Positions 1 through 64,000 of a stretch of DNA of 64,000 bases are shown one piece after another. Source of the DNA: a virus; IMG/VR virus record IMGVR_UViG_3300020048_000055, positions 44,877 through 108,876 of that record, one strand, 5' to 3'. The stretch's first letter is position 1; every line of letters starts with the position of its first letter. Below the pieces are notes generated by a model. The model did not search any database. It was not told where the DNA came from and saw only the letters and a list, made by a program, of their open reading frames with translations. Both the position numbers and the translations under genes were made by a program.

Positions 1-1196
1 ATCGTTTGTAATGAAGAACAATAAACAAACATACCAGTAAAATTTGTACCTTTACTTGCATCAATAGGAGGAATAGTTTGTAAAGAAGTACAACCATTAA
101 ACATATAAGAAAAGTTTGTACTATTGCTCGTATCAAAAAGTGGAATTGTTTGTAAGGAAGAACAATTATAAAACATACCCGAAAAGTTTGTACCTAAACT
201 TGTATCGAGAAGTGGAATCTTTTGTAAGGAAAAACAACCATTAAACATAGAATTAAAGTCCGTACCTAAACTTGTATCAAGAAGGGGAACCGTTTGTAAT
301 GAAGAACAACCATTAAGCATCTCTAAAAAACTTATTCCTTTGCTTGTATTTAGAAGTGGAATCGTTTTTAATGAAGAACAAGATTGAAAAATAGCAGTAA
401 AATTGGTACCTAAACTTGTATCAAGAAGTGGAATAGTTTGTAAGGAATTACAACTCTGAAACATAGCAGAAAAGTTTGTACCTAAACTTGTATCAAGAAG
501 GGGAATCGTTTGTAAGGCAGGACAACCATTAAACATAGCAGAAAAGTCGGTACCTTTACTTGTATCAATAAGTGGAATCGTTTGTAAGGAAGCACAACCA
601 TAAAACATATAAGAAAAGTTTGTACATTTACTTGTATTGATTAGAGGTATCTTTTGTAAGGCAGTGCAAATATAAAACATACCAGTAAAATTTGTACCTA
701 AACTGGTATCAGTAAGTGGAATCGTTTGTAAGGAACGACAACTACTAAACATCTGAGAAAAGCTTGTACCTTTACTTGTATCGAGAAGTGGAAACGTTTG
801 TAATGTAGTACAACTACTAAACATACCAGAAAAGTCTGTACCTAAACTTGTATTAAGAATTGGAACCGTTGGTAAGGCAGTACAACCATTAAACATATAA
901 GAAAAGTCTGTACCTAAACTGGTATCAATATGTGGAATCGTTTTTAATGAAGAACAATATTGAAAAATAGCAGTAAAATTGGTACCTAAACTTGTATCAA
1001 TAAGTGGAATAGTTTGTAATGAAGAACAACCATTAAACATACCCAAAAAGTTATTACCTGAACTTGTATTAATAAGTGGAATCGTTTGTAAGGAAGTACA
1101 ACTATTAAACATAGAAGTAAAGTTTGTACCTAAGGTTGTATCAAGAAGTGGAATCGTTTGTAAGGAATTACAAGCCTGAAACATCTGAGAAAAATT
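1..1196 (-). repeat. Coding tandem repeat, 72-bp unit, at least 17 units
   Basis: The atcgtttgtaa/atagtttgtaa motif recurs every 72 nt (1, 73, 145...). Confidence 0.9.
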
Positions 1197-1820
1197 TATA
1201 ATATTATTTAGTCCTAGACTAAAAGATTCTAACAACTTTAAGTTTTTAACAATAAGTAGAGTAATTAAACTGCCATTTCCTGAAATATCCAAAAAGGAAT
1301 TAGATTTACTTGGTGCTGAAGTATGAAAAACCCCTAAGTTTACTGAGGTCAAATTAAAAGTATCTTGAGGAGTAATCGTAATTAAAACCTGCTTGTAACC
1401 TAATGTTGACAGATTCGAGCAAGTTGTATAGTCATAACTATGTTCAGCTTTAATTCCTGCTACGAAGTTTTCAGTAACACCATCTCCCCAGTCTACGGAA
1501 TAATCTCCTGATATTGTAACTGCAACAAAATTTGAGTCATGGTCATAAATTGGATAGAGACCGATTACTTTTTCCTCAGACTCTAGAATTGCAGGAATTG
1601 TCAACCAGTCTGAGGGTCTTGAGTAAGGGGTAATATTATTAACAGTAGTTGTATATACGTCCAACCACTCAGCTTCTGTCCATTCTTTTGGAGCGGAACC
1701 GTCATCATATTTCATGAGAGGAACGTAGTCTCTCAAGATGTCAGAGGTTGTACCTAATTTTGCTTTCATCAGATTTTTCGTTTCAGTTAAATAATTCAAT
1801 TTGTTCAGTAGTTCGCTCAT
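1..1820 (-). CDS. Variable LRR (BspA/DUF285-like 24-aa repeat) protein, copy 1; runs off the window start
   Basis: ATG at 1820 (MSELLNKLNYLTETK...) after AAGGAAG. The frame stays open to position 1 (…CSSLQTI). It has an RPxDW motif and a DWGDG PKD-like domain, then at least 17 NFxxMFxxCxxLQTIPLLDTSLGT units with 72-bp period. Absent from the ORF track because there is no stop in the window. Confidence 0.9.
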   Translation of the reverse strand, partial: MSELLNKLNYLTETKNLMKAKLGTTSDILRDYVPLMKYDDGSAPKEWTEAEWLDVYTTTVNNITPYSRPSDWLTIPAILESEEKVIGLYPIYDHDSNFVAVTISGDYSVDWGDGVTENFVAGIKAEHSYDYTTCSNLSTLGYKQVLITITPQDTFNLTSVNLGVFHTSAPSKSNSFLDISGNGSLITLLIVKNLKLLESFSLGLNNIINFSQMFQACNSLQTIPLLDTTLGTNFTSMFNSCTSLQTIPLINTSSGNNFLGMFNGCSSLQTIPLIDTSLGTNFTAIFQYCSSLKTIPHIDTSLGTDFSYMFNGCTALPTVPILNTSLGTDFSGMFSSCTTLQTFPLLDTSKGTSFSQMFSSCRSLQTIPLTDTSLGTNFTGMFYICTALQKIPLINTSKCTNFSYMFYGCASLQTIPLIDTSKGTDFSAMFNGCPALQTIPLLDTSLGTNFSAMFQSCNSLQTIPLLDTSLGTNFTAIFQSCSSLKTIPLLNTSKGISFLEMLNGCSSLQTVPLLDTSLGTDFNSMFNGCFSLQKIPLLDTSLGTNFSGMFYNCSSLQTIPLFDTSNSTNFSYMFNGCTSLQTIPPIDASKGTNFTGMFVYCSSLQT

Positions 1821-11807: not shown

Positions 11808-11995
11808 TTTTTCACCTCAAATAGGGTGCATCCAAAGTCAGGGGCTGTAATGAGGTAAACTTCCATACCACTGTCGTCATGGGCAGTTGCATAAATATCA
11901 AATCCTGAAAGATTCAGGTTAAAAGACCATGCTCTTCCAACTTTATCACAACTTTTATCCTTCAACCAAAACTTACAATCCTTACAATGACCCAT
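11804..11995 (-). CDS. Small Cys-rich early protein
   Basis: CKDCKFW...C...T.PDFGC..F pattern, AAGGAG RBS. Confidence 0.7.
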   Translation of the reverse strand: MGHCKDCKFWLKDKSCDKVGRAWSFNLNLSGFDIYATAHDDSGMEVYLITAPDFGCTLFEVKK

Positions 11996-12023
11996 TTGTA
12001 TCTCCTTATTACCTTACATATAT

Positions 12024-12052
12024 AATATATAGGAGTTTTAATAAAAGTTCAA
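12024..12052 (-). promoter_or_regulatory. Sigma70-type early promoter TTGAAC-N17-TATATT
   Basis: Near-identical copy at 43215-43243, similar one at 61776-61804. Confidence 0.75.
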
Positions 12053-12070
12053 AACTTTTTACATCTAAAT

Positions 12071-14359: not shown

Positions 14360-16213
14360 TTATCCAACTATTGTCCAACCCTTATTTGTTGCAATCAATC
14401 TATCCTCTACGGTTAATAAAGATGCCCCAAAATTTCCCGTAATAGTTATTGTTTGTCCAGTGACTGGAGAAAACAAATTAGTAAAAATATCAACCAATGC
14501 ACTCTTACTCAAATTACAACTTGCATAGGAAATTGTTGTTTGCGTATTTAGTAAAGTTGCTTTCCCCAATGCAGTACAACCACCAAACATCTGAGAAAAG
14601 TTTGTCACTAAACTTGTATTAAGAAGTGGAATCGTTTGTAAGGCAGTACAATTATAAAACATCTGATAAAAGTTTGTACCTAAACTTGTATTAATAAGTG
14701 GAATTGTTTGCAATATAGTACAACTATAAAACATCTGAGAAAAGGTTGTACCTTTATTTGTATTAAGAAGTGGAATCGTTTGTAAGACAGTACAACCATA
14801 AAACATCTGAGAAAAATTTGTACCTAAATTTGTATCCAGAAGTGGAATCGTTTGTAAGGCAGTACAATTATTAAACATATAAGAAAAAATTGTACCTTTA
14901 CTTGTATTAATAAGTGGAATCGTTTGTAAGGCAGTACAACCAGAAAACATACCAGTAAAGGTTGTACCTAAATTTGTATCAAGAAGGGGAATAGTTTGTA
15001 ATATAGTACAACCATTAAACATATTAGAAAAGTTTATACCTAAACTTGTATTAATAAGTGGAATCGTTTGTAAGGCAGTACAATTATAAAACATATGAGA
15101 AAAATTTGTACCTGAAATTGTATCAATTAGTGGAATAGTTTGTAAGGAACTACAATTATTAAACATCTGGAAAAAGTTTGTACCTAAACTTGTATCAATT
15201 AGTGGAATAGTTTGTAAGGAACTACAACCATAAAACATAGAAGAAAAGGTTGTACCTAAACTTGTATCAAGAACCGGAATAGTTTGTAAGGAACTACAAC
15301 CATAAAACATAGAATTAAAAATTGTCCCTAAATTTGTATTAAGAAGGGGAATCGTTTGTAAGGAAGGACAACTCGCAATCATAGAAGAAAAGGTTGTACC
15401 TAAACTTGTATCAAGAAGCGGAATCGTTTTTAATGAAAAACAACTCGCAAACATATTAGAAAAGTCGGTACCTAAACTGGTATTTAGAAGTGGAATCGTT
15501 TGTAATGATTTACAATTATTAAACATCTGGAAAAAGTTTGTACCTAAACTTGTATCAAAAAGTGGAATCGTTTGTAAGGAAGAACAACCATTAAACATAG
15601 CAGAAAAGTTTGTAATATTATTTAAGCCTAAACTAAAGGATTCTAACAACTTTAAGTTTTGAACATTAAGTAGAGTAATTAAACTACCATTTCCAGAAAT
15701 GTCTAAAAAGGGATTATATTTATTTGGTGCTGAGGTGTGAAAGACCCCTAAGTTAACCGAAGTAAAATTAAAAGTTGCTTGAGGGGTAATCGTAATTAAT
15801 ACTTGCTTATAACCTAATGTTGACAGATTCGAGCAAGTTGCATAGTCATAACTATGTTCAGCTTTAATTCCTGCTACGAAGTTTTCGGAAACTCCATCAC
15901 CCCAGTCTACGGAATAATTTCCTGAGATTGTAACTGCAACGAAATTTGAGTCATGGTCGTAAACTGGATAGAGACCAATTACTTTTTGTTCAGATTCCAA
16001 AATTGTAGGAATTGTTAACCAATCAGCAGGTCTTTGGTAACTATTATAAACATCTAACCAATCAGCTTCGCTCCATTCTTTTGGAGCTGTTCCGTCATCA
16101 TATTTCATGAGAGGAACATAGTCTCTCAAGATGTCAGAGGTTGTACCTAATTTTGCTTTCATCAGATTTTTCGTTTCAGTCAAGTAATTTAATTTATTCA
16201 GTAATTCACTCAT
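14360..16213 (-). CDS. Variable LRR (BspA/DUF285-like) protein, copy 2 (complete)
   Basis: Constant N-terminus, DWGDG domain, 15 MFxxC units, C-cap ...IATNKGWTI. Confidence 0.9.
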   Translation of the reverse strand: MSELLNKLNYLTETKNLMKAKLGTTSDILRDYVPLMKYDDGTAPKEWSEADWLDVYNSYQRPADWLTIPTILESEQKVIGLYPVYDHDSNFVAVTISGNYSVDWGDGVSENFVAGIKAEHSYDYATCSNLSTLGYKQVLITITPQATFNFTSVNLGVFHTSAPNKYNPFLDISGNGSLITLLNVQNLKLLESFSLGLNNITNFSAMFNGCSSLQTIPLFDTSLGTNFFQMFNNCKSLQTIPLLNTSLGTDFSNMFASCFSLKTIPLLDTSLGTTFSSMIASCPSLQTIPLLNTNLGTIFNSMFYGCSSLQTIPVLDTSLGTTFSSMFYGCSSLQTIPLIDTSLGTNFFQMFNNCSSLQTIPLIDTISGTNFSHMFYNCTALQTIPLINTSLGINFSNMFNGCTILQTIPLLDTNLGTTFTGMFSGCTALQTIPLINTSKGTIFSYMFNNCTALQTIPLLDTNLGTNFSQMFYGCTVLQTIPLLNTNKGTTFSQMFYSCTILQTIPLINTSLGTNFYQMFYNCTALQTIPLLNTSLVTNFSQMFGGCTALGKATLLNTQTTISYASCNLSKSALVDIFTNLFSPVTGQTITITGNFGASLLTVEDRLIATNKGWTIVG

Positions 16214-16235
16214 TTGTATAGTTTCCTTTATAGTA

Positions 16236-16245
16236 TTTAATTAGT
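16236..16245 (-). promoter_or_regulatory. Putative late promoter ACTAATTAAA
   Basis: Motif shared upstream of most structural genes. An identical context occurs at 62740. Confidence 0.6.
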
Positions 16246-16253
16246 AAGAAAAT

Positions 16254-16283
16254 AAAAAAGGATACCCTTATTTAAGAGTATCC
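16254..16283 (-). terminator. Intrinsic terminator
   Basis: GGATACTCTTA...AAGGGTATCC hairpin plus T-tract, near-copy at 62701-62731. Confidence 0.75.
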
Positions 16284-19821: not shown

Positions 19822-22800
19822 TTATACAGTCTTCCAAAAGGCAGTTAGAACCAAATTTACCAACAATCCTGAAGTGCTTGTTCTCACTACCGAATTCTGG
19901 TCTTTCCAAACATCAAAAGTAAATCCTGCTTTTGTAGGAGAAAGAAATGTAAAGTTTGTATCAACGTTAAAAGAAGCTATATTTGAAACATTGTTTGTTC
20001 CACCATTTAGTGAATAAGTTATTGTATAGGTGATATAAATCCAATTAGCTGTCAAACTTAAGGAATTGAAAATACCCGTAGTGGAAGTTAGTTGAACCCC
20101 AACTGGGTCTGTCCATTTTACGAAAGTAAAACCTGATTTTGTAGGAGAAAGAAAAGTAAAATTGGTATCAACATTAAAAGAAGCTATATTTGAAACATTA
20201 TTTGTTCCACCATTTAGGGAATACGCTATTGTGTAAGTGATATAATTCCAAAAAGCGTTCATAACCAAATTCACCAACAATCCTGAAGTGTTTGTTCTCA
20301 CTACGGAGTTTTGGTCTTTCCAAGAACTAAAAGTAAATCCTGATTTTGTAGGAGAAAGAAAAGTAAAATTGGTATCAACATTAAAAGAAGCTATATTTGA
20401 AACATTGTTTGTTCCACCATTTAACGAATACGCTATTGTGTAAGTGATATAATTCCAAAAAGCGTTCATAACCAAATTTACCAACAATCCTGAAGTGCTT
20501 GTTCTCACTACCGAATTCTGGTCTTTCCAAACATCAAAAGTAAATCCTGCTTTTGTAGGAGAAAGAAATGTAAAGTTTGTATCAACGTTAAAAGAGGTTA
20601 TACTTGAAACATTATTTGTTCCACCATTTAGGGAATACGCTATTGTATAGGTAATATAATTCCAAAAAGCGTTCATAACTAGATCAGAGAATACTGAGGA
20701 GGTGTTTGTTCTTACTACAGAGTTCTGGTCTTTCCAAACATCAAAAGTATAACCTGCTTTTGTAGGAGGTACAAATTTTGCCTGATTATCTACACTAAAA
20801 TAAGTAGGATTTGACCCAACTACTTCGGATACATAATTGTGCTGAGTATAAACTTCTGGTAAATGTTTTATTTTATATAAAGTTTGAATGTCAGACAATT
20901 CGATAGCTTTTTTATAAAAAATAAAATCACCAAAAAACCCTGTATAGCTATAGCTATTATAGGTAGAAGCCTGTTGCCATTTACCGAACAGGAGATTTCC
21001 AGAATAGGAACATATTCCTACATGGCTTCGGGTAGCTTTTAATACCGAGTTTATATAAATCTTTTGGGATATTCCATCCCAAGTTATAGTAAACATGTAT
21101 CGAGTTATTCCTGTAAAAGAAATTCCATGATACCATTCATCTATCGGATCTTTCCAAGAAACTTCCCCATATTTATAAAACTTTGCATTATCACTTCCTA
21201 GAGCCATTTTACCTGCATTTACATCTTGCCAGAAAGAGAAGGTGTAAGCAGTTAGATTTTCCACGAAAGGTACTTTAATAAAGCCGTTATTAAAACAATG
21301 GATTCCATCCGTTGTAGGTCTACACCCATAGTTTGTTCCTAAACTTCTTGTCCCTGATAGATATTTCCCTGTACCAATATAGATTGCTTCAATTGTTACT
21401 AATGAGGTAGCACTAAAGTTCATATCAAGAAAATAAGCAACATAACTAAAGTTTCCACAAGAAGCAGATATAATAGTTTTCTCATTAGCCTTAATGCTTT
21501 TTGAGACATAGAAATGCATATCTGTTTCAATAGATATTGTTTGATCAACTGAGGAGGTTAGGACGTAAATTACTTCTTGATTTCTAGGGTCTTTAGTTAA
21601 TCTCCACATTGCTCCATTTGTGTTTACTGTGAAAACGAGTTTTCCACTTGACAGCACATAAGAGCAGTTAGTTAAATATATAAAACTACTTGAATCGTCG
21701 GATGTAAAATTATTGTTTCTAAAGAAGGTATTACCTACTGGGTCATCAGGAAGTTTTGGGAGAGAAAAGTTCATTCCAGAATTATTTAAAACAAGATCTT
21801 CTTGGGCGAGATATTCTCCATTGCCTAGATAGAAAGATGATATGGTAGAGTTTCCACTTGAGGTAGAAGGGTAGTGATACCAGTTCCATTTCCACTCCCA
21901 TCCATCATTAGGCACATTAAAAACGAACTCTTGAAAAGTAGGTTCTTGAAAGTTCCATGCCCAAGACATTGTTCCACCTGACCAATCACTTCTCCAAATA
22001 TAGAATCTGGGATAACCAACCCCTTTAATAGAGCCTCTTCCCGCTCTTGCTCTAATGTGTACGGTTTTCCCTCCGATACCCAAAGTCCCACCATATGAAC
22101 CATAATCGGTAAAGTTTATTTTTGGAGAAGGTAATAGCACAAGTGTTCCTGCGGGGTCATCAGGTATTTCGGGTAAAGAAACATCCGCAAAGGTAAAGTT
22201 TAAGTCAGGGTTTTCTGGAAGTTTATAATCAATGAAGTTCCAGAGAGAACTTGTATATTCATACACTTGGTTTTGTAAATATCCGAATTGACCCGAAGTA
22301 GCTACGGGACTTGTAGAGTTAAGTATTTTTATGGGATTACCAATTTTTCTCCAAGTATAATCCGTAGGGATTAATGATGGGGAGGTAGTTGTTTTACTTA
22401 CACTTGAACCCTCATATAGTTTTCCAACTGGATTATTACTGAGATTACTTCCGAGTAAGTCTGTTGCATATTTTCTCCAAGAGAAAGTGGTTGTTCCTCC
22501 ATTTAGGATATATGAAATATTAAAAGTTTTTGTTTGTAGGTTTGGAATAATATCATAGTCATTATCTATTCCAACAATAGGTAAGAAAGGGGAAAGGGCT
22601 GTCGAACTTTGTACTGTATATATATTAGGGGAACTTAGTAGCCAAATAGTTCCAGAGGTGACTGCATTATATCCAGTTCTTAGTGCAGTAGAAGTCTTAT
22701 CTGGGGAAAGTTTTAAGCATTTTACGGGAATGGATTCATCCTCATAATCGGGAGGAGGGACTGTAGAAATATCTACGCTATTTCCTAAGATATAAGTTTT

Positions 22801-24897
22801 AAACTTTTTCTTAGTAGTTGCTAAGTAGTTAGAAATAAAATAACAGTTAATTCCTGAACCACTTGAATCCCACTTACGGGTTACGAAGTTGTAGGTGTAA
22901 ATTAAATAGGTTTCTCCATATGTAAGACCAAGAAATAATCCAGAAGCAGAGGAGTAATTTGGGCAGGTAAGTCCAAAGGAAAACTCAAGGAGTTCTGTAG
23001 GTTGAACACTGAAGGTGCTTGTGCTAAAATGACAAGAGGGGGCAACAACCCTTAATGACTTTTCATTTGTTATTGGGTCACTTACTATAGTTCCTGTGGT
23101 AGACCAATTAACTAGCGTATCATTTGAAAAATTATTTAGTTTGTTATTATAATTAGAAGTAATAGACTTTCTGTTTAACCACTCGCCATTGAAAGAGTAA
23201 CCTTTAGGCTTAGAGTCAAGAGTCAATGTTTGAGAATCACCATAATATTTCATTTGGTCAGAAACTTCCGAAAACTTTACTAAAGAAAAAACCTTTGAGA
23301 AAATTATTCTAAACTTCATAAGTTCGTATTTTACTAGAACTGAATAGGGGGTATTAAATCCATTTCCTGTTAAAGTATTAATAGGGTTATAGTTTCGATT
23401 AAAGCTTGTAGTGTTTTGGTAAGAAACTATATTTGAGACAAGGTTAAAAGTTTGTGAAATACTAATAAAACTTGAAGGAAGGGTACTGGTTACAGTTCCT
23501 AAGACATTCTTTTGAAAACTAAGTGCAAAAGTAGTTGGGGTTAAATATTCGGCTTTTGTTGAATCGTTTACTGAGGTTTCAAGTAAGCTGTTCTTATAAA
23601 GTTCCTTTACAATTGAAATAGTATAAAACCTTGGAACATCATGGGAGATGAGAATTAAGTTCTTACTCATTTTATTTGAGAAATTATAATAATTAAAGGG
23701 CGAAGTTTCGTACCAACCTAAGAAGATTCTTGTTTGATCGGAAATAGTTATAGGGGGTGTTGGTACTCCAAGAATACTGTCTCTCCAAAGATTTTCTATT
23801 TTATAATCAGAAGAATCGAAAAGGAACTTAACTAAATACAGATAGTCGTAGTTTATAACAACAGAATCACTACCTATACTATTATTACCAGAGGGTATAA
23901 AATACTGAGGATATTCGTTTATCTGATTATAAGAATAGTTTATAGTATTTACAGATAATGTTTTAGGTCTTGAAAAAGATCCTGAAGTGTTTGATACATA
24001 AGTTTTCGGTATAGGTAATTCATAGTGAACAAATATTGAAGATGGGGAGATAGTAACAACATCTAATTCTGAGTCTTTATTTAAGGTAGTTGTAAAGTTT
24101 AATTCTAATAGGCTTCTGTCAAAGTAGTAGCTTAATACCTTAGGGTATGCTTGAGCAAGAGAATATCTTACAACAGTATTTAAGTTTAATTTTTCCTCAA
24201 AATAATTATACAGTTTATTATTAATTACTAGAGAGCTTTTACTAATAGCTTCTTGACCTGAGTAAGATTCTGCTAACGAATAGGTAGATAGGTCTGTATT
24301 TTGTCTATAGAAGTGTTGAGTATAATTAAACTTAAAGTTATCACTGTCTGAAAGTTTTCCTGAAATGGAACCTATTTCATAATTCCCATTTACTTGAATA
24401 GTATCTGGTTCTCCCTCAATAATAATTGTACCACCATTCTTAAAAATTATATTTGAAAGAAGGCAACTATTAAATTTAGACGAGTATCTTAAATACAATG
24501 TGGAATTATCTATTACAATGGTTGATCCATCTTGGATATCTAAATAACAATCTCCTAACATTCCTGCTTGATTCAAAGAGTTAAAGGTTGTCTGGTCATA
24601 TCCTAAATAATAATTTGTGTTAGAAATATATAGAGTTGTTCCAGAGTATAAGTGTAATGTACCATAATGAAAAAAGTTTGCACTTAAGGTAAGTCTTCGT
24701 TGTTGTTTAGATACAATAACATCACTAATACTTTTAAGTGTAGTTGGTACTGAGATTGTATCAGTACCAAACACATCAATCCACTTCCAAGTAGTCTGGG
24801 AGTCCTTTATTGCCTGAGCTGAACCCCCACGGTCTCTACTATAGTAGTGTCTTTCTCGTTCAAGAATTGTTGATTCTATTTTTGGTTTTACTTGCAT
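19822..24897 (-). CDS. Large tail fibre/adhesin with LamG-like domain and tandem InlB B-repeats
   Basis: TITWDG...KIYINS, GFFGDFIFYKKA LamG pattern; WRKYA...GK.Y.G...DYTW repeat of phage antireceptor type; C-terminal YTIAYSLNGG repeats. Confidence 0.7.
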   Translation of the reverse strand: MQVKPKIESTILERERHYYSRDRGGSAQAIKDSQTTWKWIDVFGTDTISVPTTLKSISDVIVSKQQRRLTLSANFFHYGTLHLYSGTTLYISNTNYYLGYDQTTFNSLNQAGMLGDCYLDIQDGSTIVIDNSTLYLRYSSKFNSCLLSNIIFKNGGTIIIEGEPDTIQVNGNYEIGSISGKLSDSDNFKFNYTQHFYRQNTDLSTYSLAESYSGQEAISKSSLVINNKLYNYFEEKLNLNTVVRYSLAQAYPKVLSYYFDRSLLELNFTTTLNKDSELDVVTISPSSIFVHYELPIPKTYVSNTSGSFSRPKTLSVNTINYSYNQINEYPQYFIPSGNNSIGSDSVVINYDYLYLVKFLFDSSDYKIENLWRDSILGVPTPPITISDQTRIFLGWYETSPFNYYNFSNKMSKNLILISHDVPRFYTISIVKELYKNSLLETSVNDSTKAEYLTPTTFALSFQKNVLGTVTSTLPSSFISISQTFNLVSNIVSYQNTTSFNRNYNPINTLTGNGFNTPYSVLVKYELMKFRIIFSKVFSLVKFSEVSDQMKYYGDSQTLTLDSKPKGYSFNGEWLNRKSITSNYNNKLNNFSNDTLVNWSTTGTIVSDPITNEKSLRVVAPSCHFSTSTFSVQPTELLEFSFGLTCPNYSSASGLFLGLTYGETYLIYTYNFVTRKWDSSGSGINCYFISNYLATTKKKFKTYILGNSVDISTVPPPDYEDESIPVKCLKLSPDKTSTALRTGYNAVTSGTIWLLSSPNIYTVQSSTALSPFLPIVGIDNDYDIIPNLQTKTFNISYILNGGTTTFSWRKYATDLLGSNLSNNPVGKLYEGSSVSKTTTSPSLIPTDYTWRKIGNPIKILNSTSPVATSGQFGYLQNQVYEYTSSLWNFIDYKLPENPDLNFTFADVSLPEIPDDPAGTLVLLPSPKINFTDYGSYGGTLGIGGKTVHIRARAGRGSIKGVGYPRFYIWRSDWSGGTMSWAWNFQEPTFQEFVFNVPNDGWEWKWNWYHYPSTSSGNSTISSFYLGNGEYLAQEDLVLNNSGMNFSLPKLPDDPVGNTFFRNNNFTSDDSSSFIYLTNCSYVLSSGKLVFTVNTNGAMWRLTKDPRNQEVIYVLTSSVDQTISIETDMHFYVSKSIKANEKTIISASCGNFSYVAYFLDMNFSATSLVTIEAIYIGTGKYLSGTRSLGTNYGCRPTTDGIHCFNNGFIKVPFVENLTAYTFSFWQDVNAGKMALGSDNAKFYKYGEVSWKDPIDEWYHGISFTGITRYMFTITWDGISQKIYINSVLKATRSHVGICSYSGNLLFGKWQQASTYNSYSYTGFFGDFIFYKKAIELSDIQTLYKIKHLPEVYTQHNYVSEVVGSNPTYFSVDNQAKFVPPTKAGYTFDVWKDQNSVVRTNTSSVFSDLVMNAFWNYITYTIAYSLNGGTNNVSSITSFNVDTNFTFLSPTKAGFTFDVWKDQNSVVRTSTSGLLVNLVMNAFWNYITYTIAYSLNGGTNNVSNIASFNVDTNFTFLSPTKSGFTFSSWKDQNSVVRTNTSGLLVNLVMNAFWNYITYTIAYSLNGGTNNVSNIASFNVDTNFTFLSPTKSGFTFVKWTDPVGVQLTSTTGIFNSLSLTANWIYITYTITYSLNGGTNNVSNIASFNVDTNFTFLSPTKAGFTFDVWKDQNSVVRTSTSGLLVNLVLTAFWKTV
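19830..20830 (-). repeat. Coding tandem repeat of InlB B-repeat-like units (4 near-identical units plus 1 divergent)
   Basis: YITYTIAYSLNGGTNNVS..SFNVDTNFTFLSPTK.GFTF..WKDQNSVVRT recurs with near-identical DNA. Confidence 0.85.
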
Positions 24898-45291: not shown

Positions 45292-45876
45292 TTATTTAAG
45301 TCTTACATCAGAAGCAATAGTTTCAGCATACCCCATTATTTCTTTAGAAAGTTGTGCCAAATGCTTCGTAATATGAACCCCATTTGCTTGAGTATCGCTG
45401 TGGATAGCACTCCATTTTCCAGTGCCTTTAGGACCAGGAAACGTAAAGATTGAAAGGTTATTTTTAGCTAAATCTTCCCAATGACCTTGGTAATAGAACG
45501 AGGGGTCGTCGCTATATACTTTGCAATCTGAACTTTCTATTAGTAATTCTATTGTAGCTGTCTTATCCTCGAACGTCATTGCTTTCCAATCTACTATAGA
45601 AATTATCTCAGAAACTTTATAACATCTTACCGCAACAGTGTAGTATCCCGCCATTACAGGGAAAGGTGATTTGAATTGTGCTAAAGGTTGACCTTTCTTA
45701 AACGTAGAATATACAAGAAATACCATTTCTAATAAATCATTCTTAGTGTAAAAAGTAGCTGATTTGAAAGCCCAGCGATACTCCTCAGAGTATCGTATTT
45801 GGAGGTGTTTGTCAGTAAGTGAGGAAACACCATATTTACCCAAATCAACAAAACTAGTCTCTTCTATATGTTCCAT
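45292..45876 (-). CDS. Hypothetical protein with degenerate SWIM-like pattern
   Basis: KVYSDDPSFYYQG...ITKHL resembles CxCPxFxYxG...CKH with the Cys residues lost; leader MEHIEE. Confidence 0.55.
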   Translation of the reverse strand: MEHIEETSFVDLGKYGVSSLTDKHLQIRYSEEYRWAFKSATFYTKNDLLEMVFLVYSTFKKGQPLAQFKSPFPVMAGYYTVAVRCYKVSEIISIVDWKAMTFEDKTATIELLIESSDCKVYSDDPSFYYQGHWEDLAKNNLSIFTFPGPKGTGKWSAIHSDTQANGVHITKHLAQLSKEIMGYAETIASDVRLK

Positions 45877-47147
45877 ATACTTTTAATCTCCTCATTATAT
45901 TTTATTCGTACCAACTTAATGTTGTTATCTATACAATATTTAGTTTTTATTGAATCATTTTTTTGTGTTCCATAAAGCCTTTCTACTCCACCAAAGTAAT
46001 TAACGGGTAAAAAATGTTGTATCCCATCAAACTCTATTAAATAAGACAATTTTTCATTTTCAAATACAGCAAAGTCAAAAGGGAGAGGGAGTTTATTTCT
46101 ACATTCCTTAATTCTATATTGTTCAACAAATGTTGCATTAATATTCTGTAAGTGATTCCTAATTTCTTGTTCCCCTCTAGAGGACTTGCATTTAGGACAA
46201 CCTTTTCCATGTAAATGGCTGTTTGGAACTTGAAAAAAACTTCCATGTTCTAAACAACAAATCTCTACTTTTGATTTTGCATTTAAATAAGATACTTTAG
46301 AGTAATCATAGTTATCCTCATGTACTTTTTTAGCTTTCTCAATAAAGTCAAGGGTTGTTGAAGTTTGTTTCCCTGAACATATTAGACAACCTCTACCTTT
46401 TAAATGATTATCAACTGTTTGCCAAAAACTTCCATGTTCTTTACAAATAATTTCTACTTTTGATTTAGCTGTAATATATTCAACTTTAGAGTAATCAAAC
46501 TTTTCACCATGAACTTTTATTGCCTTAATTAAAAATTCCGACTTTGTAGATACTTGTCTCTTTGAACTTTGTTCTCCTGAACATATTAAACAACCATGAC
46601 CAGATAAATGACTGTTAGCAACTTGAGAAAACTCACCATGCTCAGGACAAATAATTTTCACTTTTGAGGATGCATTTGTATACTTTACAAGAGAATAATC
46701 ATATTTATCTCCATGAACTTCTATTGCTTTTGCTTTTGATATAAACTCCAGAGTTGTTGGACTGTACATCCCAGAACATTTTGAACACCCATTTCCACTT
46801 AAATGATTATAAGGGGATTGAAAGAAACTCCCATGTTTTTTACAAATAATATAAACTTTCGAATCCGTATTTTTATATTCAACTTTAGAGTAATCATATT
46901 TATCCCCATGAACCTTTATAGCTTTATCTATAAACTCAGAGGTCGTTGAGGTGTTACTTCCAGAACATATTCGACAACCACTTCCAGAAATATGGTGATC
47001 TGCACGTTGAAAAAAGCTTCCATGTTCTTTGCATATAATCTCAAGTTTTGATTTAGTATTAGTATAGTTAATATTAGAGTAATCATATTTTTCACCATGA
47101 ACTTTTATTGCTTTTTTTATAAAATCGTTTGTTTTTAACTGTTTCAT
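45864..47147 (-). CDS. DUF723-repeat Zn-finger + Vsr/DUF559-like endonuclease (putative homing endonuclease), copy B
   Basis: Five KVHGxKYDYS...IICxEHG.F.Q....HL.G.GC..C repeats, then SRGE, LPFDF, IEFDG.QH, D..K..YC. Confidence 0.8.
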   Translation of the reverse strand: MKQLKTNDFIKKAIKVHGEKYDYSNINYTNTKSKLEIICKEHGSFFQRADHHISGSGCRICSGSNTSTTSEFIDKAIKVHGDKYDYSKVEYKNTDSKVYIICKKHGSFFQSPYNHLSGNGCSKCSGMYSPTTLEFISKAKAIEVHGDKYDYSLVKYTNASSKVKIICPEHGEFSQVANSHLSGHGCLICSGEQSSKRQVSTKSEFLIKAIKVHGEKFDYSKVEYITAKSKVEIICKEHGSFWQTVDNHLKGRGCLICSGKQTSTTLDFIEKAKKVHEDNYDYSKVSYLNAKSKVEICCLEHGSFFQVPNSHLHGKGCPKCKSSRGEQEIRNHLQNINATFVEQYRIKECRNKLPLPFDFAVFENEKLSYLIEFDGIQHFLPVNYFGGVERLYGTQKNDSIKTKYCIDNNIKLVRIKYNEEIKSIWNI

Positions 47148-47176: not shown

Positions 47177-47203
47177 GAAAAAACCAGTATTTCTACTGGC
47201 TTT
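47177..47203 (-). terminator. Intrinsic terminator (duplicate of 48482-48508)
   Basis: CCAGTA-GAAA-TACTGG plus T-tract. Confidence 0.7.
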
Positions 47204-48452
47204 ATAATTTAATCTCCTCATCATATTTTATTCGTACCAACCTAATGTTGTTATCTATACAATATTTAGTTTTTATTGAGTCCCTCTCTTTAATTCTGTT
47301 AAATCCCTCTATTCCACCAAAATACGTTACTGGAACATAATGCTGTCTTCCATCAAACTCTATTAAATATGATAATTTCTCATTTTCAAATACAGCGAAG
47401 TCAAAAGGTAGGGTGTATTTATCTTTACACTCTTTAATCCTGTATTGTTCTACAAAACTTTCACCCTTATTCAGTAATAGACTTCTAATTTCTTGTTCCC
47501 CATGAGAGGAGTTACATTTAGGACAACCAACCCCCTCTAAATGATTACAAGATCTTTGAGTGAAAACTCCGTGTTCTTTACATACAATATCAACTTTAGA
47601 TATAGAATTTTTATATTCTACTAAGGAATAATCATATTTATTTTCATGAACTTTTTTCGCCTTTTCTATAAACTCCAAAGTAGTTAACTTCTGTTTCCCA
47701 GAACATGCCATACACCCTTTCCCAGATAAATGACTATTAGCAGTTTGAAAAAAGCTACCATGTTCTGGACAAACAATCTCAAGTTTTATTTTTGCATTTG
47801 TATAGTTAGCTCTGGAATAATCATATTTGTCCCCATGAACAAATTTTGCCCTTTCTTTGAACTCAAGGGTTGTTGGTTGTTTTGTTCCTGAACATTCGGG
47901 GCATTCATGCTTTGATACATGACTACTGGGTGTTTGTGAAAAAACTCCATGTTCAGGACAAATGATTTTCACTTTAGATGTTGAATTAATATAATCCACA
48001 AGAGAATAATCGTATTTATCTCCATGAACTTTTTTAGCTTTTTCTATAAACTCTGAAGTTGTTGATTTTTGATTTCCTGAACATTTAGGGCAACCTTGCC
48101 CACCTAAATGATTGTTGGGAGTTTGGGAAAAAACACCATGTTCAGGACAAATAATTTCAACTTTTAATCCCCTGTTAGTGTATTCAACTTTAGAGTAATC
48201 ATATTTTTCCTCATGAACTTTGACAGAATTATTTATAAAATCAAAGGTAGTAAGTTTCTTATTCCCTGAGCAGAGTAAACAGCCTTTTCCCATTAAGTGA
48301 TTCTTTGCTAATTGAAAAAAGCTACCATGTTCTTTACATATAATCTCAACCTTTAACCTTGACCCTATATATTCAACTTTAGAGTAATCATATTTTTCAC
48401 CGTGTACTTTAATTGCTTTTTTTATATAATCGTTTGTTTTTAACTGTTTCAT
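47202..48452 (-). CDS. DUF723-repeat Zn-finger + Vsr/DUF559-like endonuclease, copy A
   Basis: Same architecture as copy B and the same MKQLKTND start. Confidence 0.8.
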   Translation of the reverse strand: MKQLKTNDYIKKAIKVHGEKYDYSKVEYIGSRLKVEIICKEHGSFFQLAKNHLMGKGCLLCSGNKKLTTFDFINNSVKVHEEKYDYSKVEYTNRGLKVEIICPEHGVFSQTPNNHLGGQGCPKCSGNQKSTTSEFIEKAKKVHGDKYDYSLVDYINSTSKVKIICPEHGVFSQTPSSHVSKHECPECSGTKQPTTLEFKERAKFVHGDKYDYSRANYTNAKIKLEIVCPEHGSFFQTANSHLSGKGCMACSGKQKLTTLEFIEKAKKVHENKYDYSLVEYKNSISKVDIVCKEHGVFTQRSCNHLEGVGCPKCNSSHGEQEIRSLLLNKGESFVEQYRIKECKDKYTLPFDFAVFENEKLSYLIEFDGRQHYVPVTYFGGIEGFNRIKERDSIKTKYCIDNNIRLVRIKYDEEIKL

Positions 48453-49190: not shown

Positions 49191-49283
49191 TTAGTTGCGT
49201 TCATTTTCATGATTAATAATAACAACCAATACTAAGTTAGTTGGAGGTTTTATGTTAAAAGAAATCTTTTCAAAATTATACAT
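49191..49283 (-). pseudogene. Truncated MYNFEKI-leader gene remnant (30 aa)
   Basis: GGAGG RBS, then ATGTATAATTTTGAAAAGATTT identical to the start of 49276..50538, then unrelated sequence. Confidence 0.45.
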
Positions 49284-62700: not shown

Positions 62701-62731
62701 AAGGATACTCTTAAATTGAGTATCCTTTTTT
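62701..62731 (+). terminator. Intrinsic terminator (near-copy of 16254-16283)
   Basis: AAGGATACTC...GAGTATCCTTTTTT. Confidence 0.8.
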
Positions 62732-62771
62732 ATTTTCTTACTAATTAAATACTATAAAGGAAACTATACAA

Positions 62772-64000
62772 ATGAGTGAATTACTGAATAAATTAAATTA
62801 CTTGACTGAAACGAAAAATCTGATGAAAGCAAAATTAGGTACAACCTCTGACATCTTGAGAGACTACGTTCCTCTCATGAAATATGATGACGGTTCCGCT
62901 CCAAAAGAATGGACAGAAGCTGAGTGGTTGGATGTATACAATAGTTATCAAAGACCTGCGGATTGGTTGACAATTCCTACAATTCTGGAATCTGAGGAAA
63001 AGGTTGTTGGTCTCTATCCAGTTTATGATCATGACTCAAACTTTGTTGCAGTTACAATCTCAGGAAATTATTCAGTAGACTGGGGTGATGGAGTTACCGA
63101 AAATTTCGTAGCTGGTGTGAAAGCTGAACATAAATATGATTATTCATCTTGTGGAAATTTTTCAACCTTAGGTTATAAACAAGTTTTAATTACAATTACC
63201 CCTCAAGCAACTTTTAATTTGACTTCTGTAGTATTAAATGTTTTCCATACCTCAGTACCAAATAAATCCAATTCCTTTTTAGATATTTCAGGAAACGTTG
63301 AATTCATTTCAAACTTTAATGTACAAAGCTTAAATATATTAGAGACTTTTAGTTTAGGACTAAATAATATTGTAAGTTTTTCTCAGATGTTTAATGGTTG
63401 TACTTCCTTAAAAACGGTTCCGCTTATTGATACAAGTTCAGGTACAACCTTTTCTAATATGTTTCAGAATTGTAAGTCATTACAAACGATTCCACTTATT
63501 AATACAAGTAAATGTACAAACTTTTCTCAGATGTTTCTGGGTTGTTCTACCTTAAAAACGATTCCATTTATTGATACAAGTTTAGGTACAAACTTTTATT
63601 CTATGTTTGCTAATTGTAATTTATTAAAAACGATTCCACTTCTCAATACAAGTTCAGGTACAAACTTTTCTAATATGTTTATTGGTTGTACTGCATTACA
63701 AACGGTTCCACTTCTTGATACAAACTTAGGTACAGATTTTTCTCAGATGTTTTATGGTTGTACTGCATTACAAACAATTCCGCTTCTTGATACAAGTAAA
63801 GGTACAAGCTTTTCTCAGATGTTTAATATGTGTAAGTCATTACAAACGATTCCACTTATTGATACAAGTTTAGGTACAAACTTTTATGCTATGTTTAATA
63901 CTTGTACTGCCTTACAAAAGATTCCACTTATTGATACAAGTAAATGTACAAACTTTGCTTATATGTTTAATACTTGTACTACATTACAAACGATTCCACT
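62772..64000 (+). CDS. Variable LRR (BspA/DUF285-like) protein, copy 3; runs off the window end
   Basis: ATG 62772 MSELLNKLNYLTETK..., frame open to 64000, at least 9 MFxxC units of 72 bp. Confidence 0.9.
   Translation, partial: MSELLNKLNYLTETKNLMKAKLGTTSDILRDYVPLMKYDDGSAPKEWTEAEWLDVYNSYQRPADWLTIPTILESEEKVVGLYPVYDHDSNFVAVTISGNYSVDWGDGVTENFVAGVKAEHKYDYSSCGNFSTLGYKQVLITITPQATFNLTSVVLNVFHTSVPNKSNSFLDISGNVEFISNFNVQSLNILETFSLGLNNIVSFSQMFNGCTSLKTVPLIDTSSGTTFSNMFQNCKSLQTIPLINTSKCTNFSQMFLGCSTLKTIPFIDTSLGTNFYSMFANCNLLKTIPLLNTSSGTNFSNMFIGCTALQTVPLLDTNLGTDFSQMFYGCTALQTIPLLDTSKGTSFSQMFNMCKSLQTIPLIDTSLGTNFYAMFNTCTALQKIPLIDTSKCTNFAYMFNTCTTLQTIP

What the first reader, a model, noticed from the sequence alone, without database searches (positions are those of the whole stretch)
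1..1820. Dispersed three-copy variable-LRR gene family with focused diversification (VLR-like repertoire in a phage)
Seen: three genes (1..1820 -, 14360..16213 -, 62772..64000 +) share a roughly 200-aa near-constant N-terminus followed by 24-aa/72-bp units (at least 17, 15 and at least 9). The scaffold LQTIPLxxTSxGT/NF/MF/C is conserved, while the dipeptides in NF-xx-MF-xx-C-xx differ in nearly every unit. In copies 1 and 3, units 6-9 keep the same rare scaffold variants in register (DFS..., DTSKGTSFSQMF, CTALQKIPLI.TSKCTNF.YMF), yet the MF-xx-C residues are replaced (SS/SS/YI/YG versus YG/NM/NT/NT). Established: in LRR solenoids such positions line one ligand-binding surface. Inference: these are late-expressed, probably virion-displayed binding proteins, diversified at the binding face by strong selection or patch conversion between units, without any reverse transcriptase in the window.
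Basis: partly seen in the sequence, partly recalled or inferred. Interest (0 to 1): 0.85.

Follow-up and report, generated by a model that had tools for sequence, protein, structure and literature searches.

The report
Jumbo-phage DUF285 leucine-rich-repeat gene family
A roughly 287-kb uncultured phage carries six copies of a known leucine-rich-repeat gene (DUF285/PARCEL); the copies share their ends and differ mainly at five surface positions per 24-residue repeat, so they look like an inherited set of binding proteins, not an antibody-like diversity machine.

Summary
The window has three 72-bp arrays (TRF) in genes that share an N-terminal region of about 212-219 residues. The family is larger than reported. 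A fourth copy lies just left of the window. The contig also joins a 178-kb IMG/VR contig by an exact 54-nt overlap inside copy D. That gives one phage of about 287 kb with six paralogs of 10-19 units.

The proteins belong to the known DUF285/PARCEL (BspA-like LRR) family (Pfam E 1e-38 to 1e-62; TIGR02167; fold match 4fs7). This family is already reported in jumbo phages and giant viruses, and this scan has met it in at least 24 other genomes.

Variation is focused. Five codon columns (16, 17, 20, 21, 23) carry most of the entropy. They are 87% S/N/Y/T/G/Q/A and nearly always NNT codons. They change 1.4-3.7 times faster than synonymous sites, against 0.25 for the scaffold.

These columns lie outside the canonical LxxLxL beta-strand, which is nearly invariant here, so the VLR analogy fails. 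No reverse transcriptase occurs in any of the contigs, and adenine-specific mutagenesis is excluded. Evidence for patch exchange is modest. Virion display is untested. Verdict: a new member of a known kind.

The parts
1..1820 (-). Paralog B (695 aa in full; its 3' end lies 264 nt left of the window). The N-terminal region, aa 1-219, is at 1164-1820. The 72-bp units occupy 1-1163 (17 units in the whole gene).
   Evidence: Pfam DUF285 E 2.6e-62.
15578..16213 (-). Paralog C, conserved N-terminal region (aa 1-212). It has a helix at 2-21, a disordered linker, and a beta-sandwich at about 57-200 with the invariant motif VDWGDG. Residues 201-212 belong to the degenerate first repeat unit.
   Evidence: Models m0e438cdbea8d and m5444993f3fd6. 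Omega is 0.13-0.20 between paralogs. No clear PDB fold match (best Z 5.7). The same domain plus DUF285 occurs in uncultured Caudovirales proteins.
14570..15577 (-). Paralog C, array of 14 units of exactly 72 bp / 24 aa (an LRR solenoid).
   Evidence: Structure pLDDT above 90 across the array. Foldseek best hits are 4fs7 (E 2.2e-9, TMt 0.48) and 4gt6 (E 6.8e-7, TMt 0.42), BspA-type LRRs.
14360..14569 (-). Paralog C, conserved C-terminal cap of 69 aa (LGKATLLNT...KGWTIVG) plus the stop codon.
   Evidence: pN 0.056-0.061, pS 0.42-0.51 between paralogs. The cap is conserved in distant homologs.
62772..64000 (+). Paralog D. The N-terminal region is at 62772-63407, followed by 8 units. The gene is cut by the contig end and continues on IMGVR_UViG_3300020048_000018. 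The joined gene is 520 aa with 10 units and a cap.
   Evidence: exact 54-nt suffix-prefix overlap.
16234..16283 (-). Upstream cassette of C: a hairpin (GGATACTC...GGTATCC) with a T-run, then CTTACTAATTAAATA (promoter-like), followed by the RBS AAAGGAA.
   Evidence: The same cassette lies upstream of D and G, and a related motif lies upstream of the tail-sheath-like gene 55941-58529.
62703..62751 (+). Upstream cassette of D (hairpin, T-run, CTTACTAATTAAATA).

Best explanation
These genes are members of a six-copy paralogous family of DUF285/PARCEL (BspA-like leucine-rich-repeat) proteins in one uncultured jumbo phage of about 287 kb.

Each protein has five parts: a short N-terminal helix, a flexible linker, a conserved beta-sandwich domain, a solenoid of 10-19 units of exactly 24 residues, and a conserved 69-residue cap.

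The ends are held by purifying selection. The arrays evolve in two ways. Whole 72-bp units are gained, lost and occasionally exchanged. Amino acids are replaced at five positions per unit (16, 17, 20, 21, 23), and less so at positions 14 and 24. These positions lie between the buried F15, M18/F19 and C22, in the half of the repeat that is not the canonical beta-strand. They are filled almost only with Ser, Asn, Tyr, Thr, Gly and Gln.

I infer that these stripes form a binding surface. I also infer that the six copies are an inherited, co-expressed (probably late) set of binders with different specificities, most likely for host-cell surface structures, and attached to the virion through the shared N-terminal part.

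The diversity comes from ordinary mutation, selection and homologous recombination between very similar units. It does not come from a dedicated diversity-generating machine.

Shown here: family membership, architecture, copy number, the focus of variation, and the excess of nonsynonymous change. Inferred: the binding function, virion attachment and late expression.
For: Family membership: PF03382 E 9.5e-38 to 2.6e-62, and TIGR02167 at 113 bits against a cut-off of 30. PDB sequence and fold matches are to BspA-type LRRs 4fs7 and 4gt6 and to LGR4/TLR/VLR LRRs.

Copy number: four copies on this contig. An exact 54-nt overlap of contig ends lies inside gene D, and the CheckV estimates of 37% and 69% add up to about one genome. 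The N-terminal 40 aa is found exactly six times in the two contigs.

Conserved ends: between paralogs the N-terminal region has dS 0.31-0.60 and omega 0.13-0.20, and the cap has pN about 0.06.

Focused variation: see the entropy table. Nucleotide diversity is 0.57/0.53 at codon positions 1/2 of the five core codons, against 0.22 at their position 3 and 0.13 at scaffold position 3. Pairwise pN/pS is 3.5 for core codons and 0.29 for the scaffold. Tree-based counting gives core omega 1.4-3.7 against pooled synonymous changes (3.3-6.4 against the core's own) and scaffold omega 0.23-0.28. A Mann-Whitney test of core positions 1-2 against third positions gives p = 0.008 to 1e-5.

Codons and residues: 4-fold-family codons at the core end in T in 204 of 214 cases, although the genome uses GGT 0.47 and ACT 0.40. 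Core residues are S 29%, N 14%, Y 13%, T 13%, G 8.5%, Q 7%, with 3.8% charged.

Array turnover: unit numbers are 10, 14, 14, 15, 17 and 19. Paralog arrays are not collinear. One 72-nt tract, including rare variable codons, is identical between D6/7 and E5/6, and matches of 40 nt or more are in excess (18 against 6.6 expected).

Context: the promoter-like motif is shared with a tail-sheath-like gene. The gene next to copy E hits tail-fibre, head-decoration and virion-structural PHROGs (E 1e-28). In a distant relative the overlapping upstream gene hits a tail-fibre PHROG (E 3e-14). The same architecture occurs in many uncultured Caudovirales proteins.
Against: No direct evidence places the proteins in the virion or shows any binding. 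The neighbours of C in the window have no recognisable family.

The size of omega depends on the synonymous reference. With the most conservative tree it is 1.4. Against the N- and C-terminal pS of 0.25-0.51, the core pN of 0.54 gives only 1.1-2.2, so neutral saturation of unconstrained positions is not fully excluded.

Unit-to-unit distance is the same within a gene, between paralogs and to another phage (0.15 non-core, 0.42-0.46 core). This could mean an old equilibrium under constraint rather than active turnover.

Scaffold synonymous sites are unusually uniform (TTT 86:2, TGT 88:1). That could reflect selection at the nucleotide level, which would inflate omega.

Coordinates of the model were not available, so I could not compute that the variable residues form one exposed face. 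That rests on solenoid geometry and on the alignment to canonical LRRs.
Confidence: 0.6

Rival explanations
1. The proteins are packaged inside the head and injected with the DNA, like phage T4 internal proteins and Alt. The first 13 residues would act as a capsid-targeting leader removed by the prohead protease after L-x-E. The LRR surfaces would then bind host intracellular proteins, for example defence factors, and the paralogs would be an arms-race set.
For: All six paralogs start MSELLNKLNYL(T/Q)E|TK, which is a hydrophobic-x-Glu site at residues 11-13. An unrelated LRR_5 protein of the same phage starts with the same helix and site, MSIILNKLEYLRE|TK. First-stage notes on this genome list similar leaders on head-module genes. 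Follow-ups of this scan on other jumbo phages read DUF285 families this way. Those notes are leads, not evidence.
Against: An L-x-E within the first 20 residues is expected by chance in roughly a quarter of proteins. A conserved domain of about 200 residues after the leader is not needed for capsid targeting, and it fits an anchor or adaptor better. No T4-type prohead protease (PF03420) was found, though that search had no positive control. Neighbouring genes in two contexts look like tail fibre or decoration proteins, not head-internal proteins.
Confidence: 0.2
2. There is no diversifying selection. The variable positions are simply unconstrained surface residues that have saturated over a long time. 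Scaffold codons, including their synonymous sites, are kept uniform by concerted evolution or by nucleotide-level constraint, such as the dyad symmetry described for PARCEL coding DNA. The paralogs would then be functionally redundant or differ for other reasons.
For: Unit distances are equal at all levels of relatedness, including to another phage. Core pN of 0.54 is only 1.1-2.2 times the pS of the N- and C-terminal domains. Third-position diversity among 4-fold scaffold sites is heterogeneous, 0.10-0.53. Imperfect GTACAA...TTGTAC dyads occur in the units. The same x positions are variable throughout the whole family (PMC2996958).
Against: If the positions were unconstrained and saturated, the third positions of the same codons should be near genomic codon usage. 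Instead they are T in 204 of 214 4-fold-family codons, and C in only 2 of 221 two-fold-box codons, against a genomic C share of 23-30%. Core composition is far from that of a free surface, at 87% S/N/Y/T/G/Q/A and 3.8% charged. Gene conversion cannot homogenise scaffold codons while skipping variable codons 3-9 nt away unless selection keeps the latter diverse. Omega is above 1 on all three trees.
Confidence: 0.15
3. The arrays are diversified by a programmed mechanism. This would be either a diversity-generating retroelement or VLR-like assembly from donor cassettes.
For: Variable codons are almost all NNT, with changes at positions 1-2 only. That resembles what adenine mutagenesis of AAT template codons would give. 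Variable codon states are close to linkage equilibrium among units.
Against: PF00078 finds nothing in this contig, in its 178-kb partner, or in two related contigs. Synonymous adenines of the scaffold do not vary (TTA 57/58, CAA 50/50 Gln, ACA 53/57), which adenine-directed mutagenesis would not spare. Asp (GAT) and His (CAT) are nearly absent. The arrays of 0.7-1.4 kb are far longer than known variable regions. Every copy is a complete ORF with start, RBS and cap, and no unit-like DNA lies outside the genes on this contig.
Confidence: 0.03

Closest known systems
PARCEL / DUF285 repeat proteins (Pfam PF03382, NCBIfam TIGR02167 'PARCEL repeat-containing surface protein'; Roske et al. 2010, PMC2996958)
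   Same: Strong HMM matches. Tandem units of about 25 residues, with conserved hydrophobic residues and variable hydrophilic ones. Variable unit number, multi-copy dispersal within a genome, signs of horizontal movement, and imperfect dyad symmetry of the coding DNA.
   Different: The unit is exactly 24 residues. There is no signal peptide or lipobox. The array is fused to a conserved N-terminal helix plus beta-sandwich of about 200 residues and to a 69-residue cap. It is carried by a phage.
DUF285/BspA-like genes of large viruses: Vibrio jumbo phage vB_VhaM_pir03 (PARCEL ORF 200 and BspA-family ORF 287, PMC7765460), Aureococcus anophagefferens virus / Kratosvirus quantuckense (38 DUF285 genes, PMC10720644), and BFVD entries of Klebsiella phage N1M2 and uncultured Caudovirales
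   Same: The same repeat family, expanded into paralogs in a large viral genome. Function is unknown in all cases. A0A6J5NAQ5 (uncultured Caudovirales) has the same N-domain plus DUF285 architecture (TM 0.71 over the N-domain, 32% identity).
   Different: Here there are only six dispersed copies, each long (520-744 aa), with very regular and homogeneous arrays that allow a synonymous versus nonsynonymous comparison.
BspA-type LRR_5 surface proteins with solved structures (4fs7 Bacteroides ovatus, 4gt6 Faecalibacterium prausnitzii)
   Same: Best sequence matches (E 2.6e-24 and 1.2e-15) and best fold matches (TMt 0.48 and 0.42). They share the ...F-x-x-C-x-x-L-x-x-I... repeat core.
   Different: About 17-19% identity, a different unit length, and bacterial cell-surface proteins whose ligands are unknown.
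Lamprey variable lymphocyte receptors (VLR)
   Same: An LRR solenoid with a variable number of 24-residue modules between constant caps. Tyr/Ser/Asn/Gly-rich variable residues. Weak sequence matches to VLR chimeras.
   Different: VLR diversity sits on the concave beta-strand positions and arises by somatic cassette copying into an incomplete gene. Here the beta-strand positions Q2, T3 and P5 are invariant, the variable positions are in the other half of the repeat, and all copies are complete germline genes.
TAL effector repeat arrays (comparison from my own knowledge, not tested here)
   Same: Near-identical repeat DNA with variation confined to a few codons per repeat. Arrays change by gain, loss and exchange of whole repeats.
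   Different: An unrelated fold and function (DNA reading). Two variable residues per 34-aa repeat, against five to seven per 24-aa repeat here.
Phage receptor-binding proteins with a shared N-terminal anchor and divergent C-terminal binding parts (multi-RBP phages; from general knowledge)
   Same: Paralogs have a conserved N-terminus and a divergent distal part. They sit next to fibre-like genes and have late-type upstream motifs.
   Different: No beta-helix, tailspike or fibre fold. Trimerisation and virion attachment have not been shown.

Membership tests
DUF285 / PARCEL repeat proteins | Match to PF03382 above the gathering score | tested here: met
   129-208 bits against a cut-off of 25, E 9.5e-38 to 2.6e-62, for all three window proteins.
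DUF285 / PARCEL repeat proteins | Match to the TIGR02167 repeat model | tested here: met
   113 bits against a cut-off of 30 for paralog C.
DUF285 / PARCEL repeat proteins | Tandem units of about 25 residues with conserved hydrophobic and variable hydrophilic positions | tested here: met
   58 units on this contig (91 in the joined ~287-kb phage), each exactly 24 aa. L1, P5, F15 and C22 are invariant, and columns 16, 17, 20, 21 and 23 are variable.
DUF285 / PARCEL repeat proteins | Dyad symmetry of the repeat-coding DNA | tested here: inconclusive
   Eight imperfect inverted repeats lie in the 1-kb array of C, several of the form GTACAA...TTGTAC. They were not compared with shuffled controls.
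Leucine-rich repeat superfamily | LxxLxLxx(N/C/T)xL core and solenoid fold | tested here: met
   L1-x-x-I4-x-L6-x-x-T9-x-L11 aligns to LGR4 repeats. The model has pLDDT 90, and Foldseek probability is 1.0 to more than 400 LRR structures.
VLR-like somatic repertoire | Variable residues on the concave beta-strand (the x positions of LxxLxLxxN) | tested here: not met
   Columns 2, 3 and 5 are Q (50/58), T (52/58) and P (58/58). Variation lies in columns 14-24.
VLR-like somatic repertoire | An incomplete receptor gene completed from flanking donor cassettes | tested here: not met
   All six copies are complete ORFs with RBS, N-domain and cap. No unit-like DNA lies outside the genes on this contig.
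Diversity-generating retroelement | A reverse transcriptase gene | tested here: not met
   PF00078 finds nothing in G000, G001, G002 or G003, while the control genomes gave hits. The records are fragments, but G000 plus G001 are about 100% by CheckV sums.
Diversity-generating retroelement | Differences restricted to template adenines | tested here: not met
   Synonymous scaffold adenines are invariant (TTA 57/58, CAA 50/50, ACA 53/57).
T4-type capsid-targeted internal proteins | A short N-terminal leader ending in (L/I)-x-E | tested here: inconclusive
   The motif NYL(T/Q)E|T is present in all copies, but such a motif is common by chance.
T4-type capsid-targeted internal proteins | A cognate prohead protease and cleavage | tested here: inconclusive
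   PF03420 gave no match, and no control genome gave one either. Cleavage cannot be tested with these tools.
Phage receptor-binding / fibre proteins | Presence in the virion and host binding | not testable with these tools
   Only context is available: fibre-like neighbours and a promoter-like motif shared with a sheath-like gene.

The most novel reading that the evidence does not exclude
The six paralogs form an actively recombining binder repertoire. The 72-bp units are kept near-identical at silent sites, and the variable codons are locked to NNT. This would let units be exchanged between copies, and with co-infecting relatives, while point changes at codon positions 1-2 explore a stop-free Ser/Asn/Tyr/Thr/Gly alphabet. 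New binding surfaces on the non-canonical face of an LRR would then arise on ecological time scales. That would be a phage counterpart of modular repertoires such as VLRs or TAL effectors, but without a dedicated enzyme.
Probability: 0.15. Interest if true: 0.7.

Novelty: new member of a known kind. Interest (0 to 1): 0.32.

Why it matters
DUF285/PARCEL arrays are among the commonest unexplained gene expansions in jumbo phages and giant viruses.

This example is unusually clean. The units are exactly 72 bp with no indels. The silent sites are homogeneous enough that replacement can be compared with silent change. The result is that five positions per repeat change faster than silent sites and use a paratope-like residue set, and they sit on the face of the LRR that is not the usual ligand-binding one.

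That gives a concrete surface to test for host-range determinants or other targets. It also suggests a compact natural scaffold for binder engineering.

It does not reveal a new kind of system. The finding is also a practical warning: these repeats break metagenome assemblies. Two 'separate' IMG/VR viral genomes are here shown to be one phage.

Tried and rejected
- **DGR.** Rejected: no RT and no adenine-specific pattern.
- **VLR-type cassette assembly.** Rejected: the genes are complete and the variable face is the wrong one.
- **G001 as an independent related phage.** Rejected after the exact 54-nt end overlap was found. Only F on G002 is from another phage.
- **Collinearity of arrays between paralogs.** Unit-level distance matrices show no diagonals. 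The B5-8/D5-8 register is real but weak.
- **Synteny between E (G001) and F (G002).** DNA similarity stops about 20 nt outside the gene. Flanking ORFs of L001, L002 and L012 have no homologs on this contig apart from LRR genes and one weak match to the 1691-aa protein (window 19822-24897).
- **Closer relatives for a population-level test.** None found. The phage collection gave no match by DNA or protein. IMG/VR gave only the same sample. The metagenome scan gave hits of 50% identity or less.
- **Fold of the N-domain.** No convincing PDB match (best Z 5.7, generic beta-sandwiches and CBM-like domains). Pfam found nothing even at E 10. My impression of a PKD-like WGDG motif is supported only by weak BFVD hits to 'PKD domain' phage proteins.
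- **Neighbours of C.** No Pfam, PHROG or PDB sequence matches.
- **T4-type prohead protease.** The search was uninformative.
- **Exposure of variable residues.** Model coordinates are not exposed to scripts, so this was not computed.
Full report
**What is there**

The window has three arrays of 72-bp tandem units: 1-1167, 14573-15614 and 63378-64000. Matches are 77-81% with essentially no indels. They lie in ORFs 3-1820 (-), 14360-16213 (-) and 62772-63998 (+).

All three proteins start with the same N-terminal region of about 212-219 residues, 85-92% identical. They continue with 24-residue units of the form L-Q-T-I-P-L-x-(D/N)-T-S-x-G-T-x-F-x-x-M-F-x-x-C-x-x.

**The family is bigger than reported, and the 'relative' is the same phage**

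The window is the right-hand 64 kb of a 108,876-bp IMG/VR contig.

- A fourth paralog (A, 19 units) lies 1.5 kb left of the window.
- Copy 1 (B, 17 units) ends 264 nt left of it.
- The nearest IMG/VR hit, IMGVR_UViG_3300020048_000018 (178,053 bp), is not an independent phage. The last 54 nt of this contig equal the first 54 nt of the reverse complement of that contig's end. The overlap falls inside a unique stretch of copy D that includes its variable codons.
- The joined D is 520 aa, with 10 units and the usual cap.
- CheckV estimates of 37% and 69% add up to about one genome.

The phage is therefore about 287 kb and has six paralogs: A, B, C, D, E and G, with 19, 17, 14, 10, 14 and 15 units. 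The N-terminal 40 residues occur exactly six times in the two contigs. A seventh gene, F, sits on a second contig of the same sample (G002). It is the only copy from a different phage.

**What family it is**

- All three window proteins match Pfam DUF285 (PF03382) at E 1e-38 to 1e-62. Paralog C matches NCBIfam TIGR02167, 'PARCEL repeat-containing surface protein', at 113 bits.
- The best solved relatives are the BspA-type LRR proteins 4fs7 and 4gt6, followed by LGR4, TLR and VLR ectodomains.
- An AlphaFold model of C (pLDDT 90, pTM 0.83) shows a helix at 2-22, a disordered linker, a beta-sandwich at about 57-200, a long solenoid and a small C-terminal cap. Foldseek confirms the LRR fold.
- The N-domain has no convincing solved counterpart (best Z 5.7). 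The same N-domain plus DUF285 architecture is present in uncultured Caudovirales proteins (TM 0.71) and in at least 71 metagenomic proteins. Protein-atlas clusters with this look are mostly viral.

PARCELs were described in 2010 as amphipathic repeats whose hydrophilic residues vary. They are multi-copy and horizontally mobile (PMC2996958). They are annotated in the jumbo phage pir03 (PMC7765460), and 38 copies occur in the giant virus AaV (PMC10720644). This scan has already followed up similar families in jumbo phages: 28 findings in at least 24 genomes.

**Is the variation focused?**

Yes. Over the 58 units on this contig:

- L1, P5, F15 and C22 are invariant. T9, M18 and F19 are nearly so.
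- Entropy is 1.7-2.9 bits at columns 14, 16, 17, 20, 21, 23 and 24.
- At the nucleotide level the five core codons (16, 17, 20, 21, 23) have diversity 0.57 and 0.53 at positions 1 and 2, but 0.22 at position 3. Scaffold third positions have 0.13.
- Core codons are almost all NNT. Of 214 codons from 4-fold families, 204 end in T, although the genome uses GGT 47% and ACT 40%.
- Scaffold codons are position-specific and nearly fixed. Examples are TTA at column 1 but CTT at column 6, ACG at column 3, TTT 57/58 and TGT 57/58, against genomic TTT 70% and TGT 81%.

**Is it selection?**

| Measure | Core | Scaffold |
|---|---|---|
| Pairwise Nei-Gojobori pN | 0.544 | 0.057 |
| Pairwise Nei-Gojobori pS | 0.154 | 0.195 |
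| Pairwise pN/pS | 3.5 | 0.29 |
| Tree-based omega, pooled synonymous changes (three trees) | 1.4-3.7 | 0.23-0.28 |
| Tree-based omega, the core's own synonymous changes | 3.3-6.4 | – |

Two further points bear on this. One of the three trees was built only from the core sites, which is the conservative case. Core positions 1-2 accumulate 17-33 parsimony changes per site, against 6-9 for third positions (p = 0.008 to 1e-5).

The paralogs are not young. Their N-terminal regions differ by dS 0.31-0.60 with omega 0.13-0.20. Against that slower clock the excess is smaller, at 1.1-2.2 fold.

I conclude that the core positions change at least as fast as silent sites, and probably two to four times faster. 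Their composition also argues against a merely unconstrained surface, which would be rich in charged residues. It is S 29%, N 14%, Y 13%, T 13%, G 8.5%, Q 7%, with only 3.8% charged.

Caveats are saturation, recombination among units, and the unexplained uniformity of scaffold silent sites.

**How the arrays change**

- Unit numbers differ (10-19) with the 72-bp phase perfectly kept.
- Unit-level distance matrices show no collinearity between any two paralogs, or between E and F.
- The mean distance between units is the same for neighbours, for units in one gene, for units in different paralogs, and for units of the other phage: 0.15 outside the core and 0.42-0.46 in the core.
- Variable-codon states are close to linkage equilibrium, with a modest excess of long shared tracts. 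In-phase exact matches of 40 nt or more number 18, against 6.6 expected and a 95th percentile of 12.
- One tract of 72 identical nucleotides links D6/7 and E5/6 and includes the rare NM-C-KS codons. That is evidence for at least one recent exchange between paralogs, not for pervasive patch conversion.
Those units also differ at 4-7 other sites each, mostly silent, so they are old homologs rather than freshly edited copies.
- Between G001 and G002, DNA similarity ends about 20 nt outside the start and stop codons. The gene therefore sits in different surroundings in the two phages.

**Mechanisms excluded**

No reverse transcriptase domain is found in this contig, its partner or two related contigs, while the control genomes do give hits. 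Adenine-directed mutagenesis would also have scrambled the silent adenines of TTA, CAA, ACA and CCA, and these are nearly invariant.

The VLR comparison fails on two defining points. Every copy is a complete gene with RBS and cap. In the alignment to LGR4/VLR repeats, the ligand-binding beta-strand LxxLxLxxN corresponds to L1-Q2-T3-I4-P5-L6-x-x-T9, which is the invariant part here. The variable columns lie in the second half of the repeat, between the buried F15, M18/F19 and C22. By solenoid geometry they should form adjacent stripes on the convex or flank side.

**What it probably does**

The architecture is a conserved N-terminal helix and domain, a variable distal solenoid, and several paralogs. 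This is the pattern of phage receptor-binding or adhesin sets.

- C, D and G are preceded by a hairpin, a T-run, and then CTTACTAATTAAATA. A related motif precedes a tail-sheath-like gene.
- The gene after E hits tail-fibre, head-decoration and virion-structural PHROGs. In a distant relative, the overlapping upstream gene hits a tail-fibre PHROG.
- C itself lies among very large genes of unknown family, two of which have Listeria-Bacteroides repeat domains.

I therefore favour virion-borne binders of host surface structures. This rests on context only.

The main rival is that the proteins are head-packaged and injected. All copies, and an unrelated LRR_5 protein of the same phage, begin with a helix ending in L-x-E followed by T-K. 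This resembles T4 capsid-targeting leaders. The protease search was uninformative.

**Verdict**

The focused variation with omega above 1 is real and is the most useful result. The interpretation as a VLR-like system is not supported. This is a new member of a known and recurrent kind, the DUF285/PARCEL families of large phages, with function still unproven.

Noticed in passing
window 63947-64000 (contig end) and L014 (G001:C1:175500-178053): This contig and IMGVR_UViG_3300020048_000018 overlap by an exact 54 nt inside paralog D. They are two pieces of one phage of about 287 kb, and the assembly broke in the repeats. A second end of the partner contig did not overlap this contig's start.
   Followed up: yes
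window 11993-12063; also 16234-16283 (-) and 62703-62751 (+): A 60-70-nt unit (GC-rich hairpin, T-run, then ACTAATTAAATA) is dispersed through the phage. A piece of it matches 31 places in the partner contig and 13 in the related contig G002. It looks like a combined terminator and (late?) promoter cassette.
   Followed up: partly
L001:1369-3396 (-) (= G001 around 100395): A 675-aa BspA/LRR_5-type protein of the same phage has different repeats, but starts with the same N-terminal helix as the DUF285 paralogs (MSIILNKLEYLRETK against MSELLNKLNYLTETK). This suggests a shared N-terminal address or adaptor module.
   Followed up: partly
window 16175-16213 (-) and the equivalent starts of the other paralogs: All paralogs carry L-x-E at residues 11-13 (NYLTE|T). 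This resembles T4-type prohead-protease or capsid-targeting sites that other first-stage notes report for the head module of this genome.
   Followed up: partly
L001:5982-7871 versus L002:5982-7877: Between the two phages of the sample, nucleotide similarity (81%) covers the DUF285 gene plus only about 20 nt on each side. The flanks are unrelated, as if the gene were exchanged as a cassette.
   Followed up: partly
window 49350-49751, 47586-48221 and 19832-20768: Other in-frame tandem arrays occur. There are 63 bp x 6.4 copies in gene 49276-50538, and 189 bp x 3.4 copies in gene 47202-48452. Gene 47202-48452 and its neighbour 45864-47147 hit homing or HNH endonuclease PHROGs strongly. There are also 207 bp x 4.5 copies, which are the Listeria-Bacteroides repeat domains of the 1691-aa protein.
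   Followed up: no
window 45864-47147, 47202-48452 and 54832-55815: Three homing or HNH endonuclease-like genes lie in the structural region (PHROG E down to 3e-98). Two of them have the ACTAATTA-type motif upstream.
   Followed up: no
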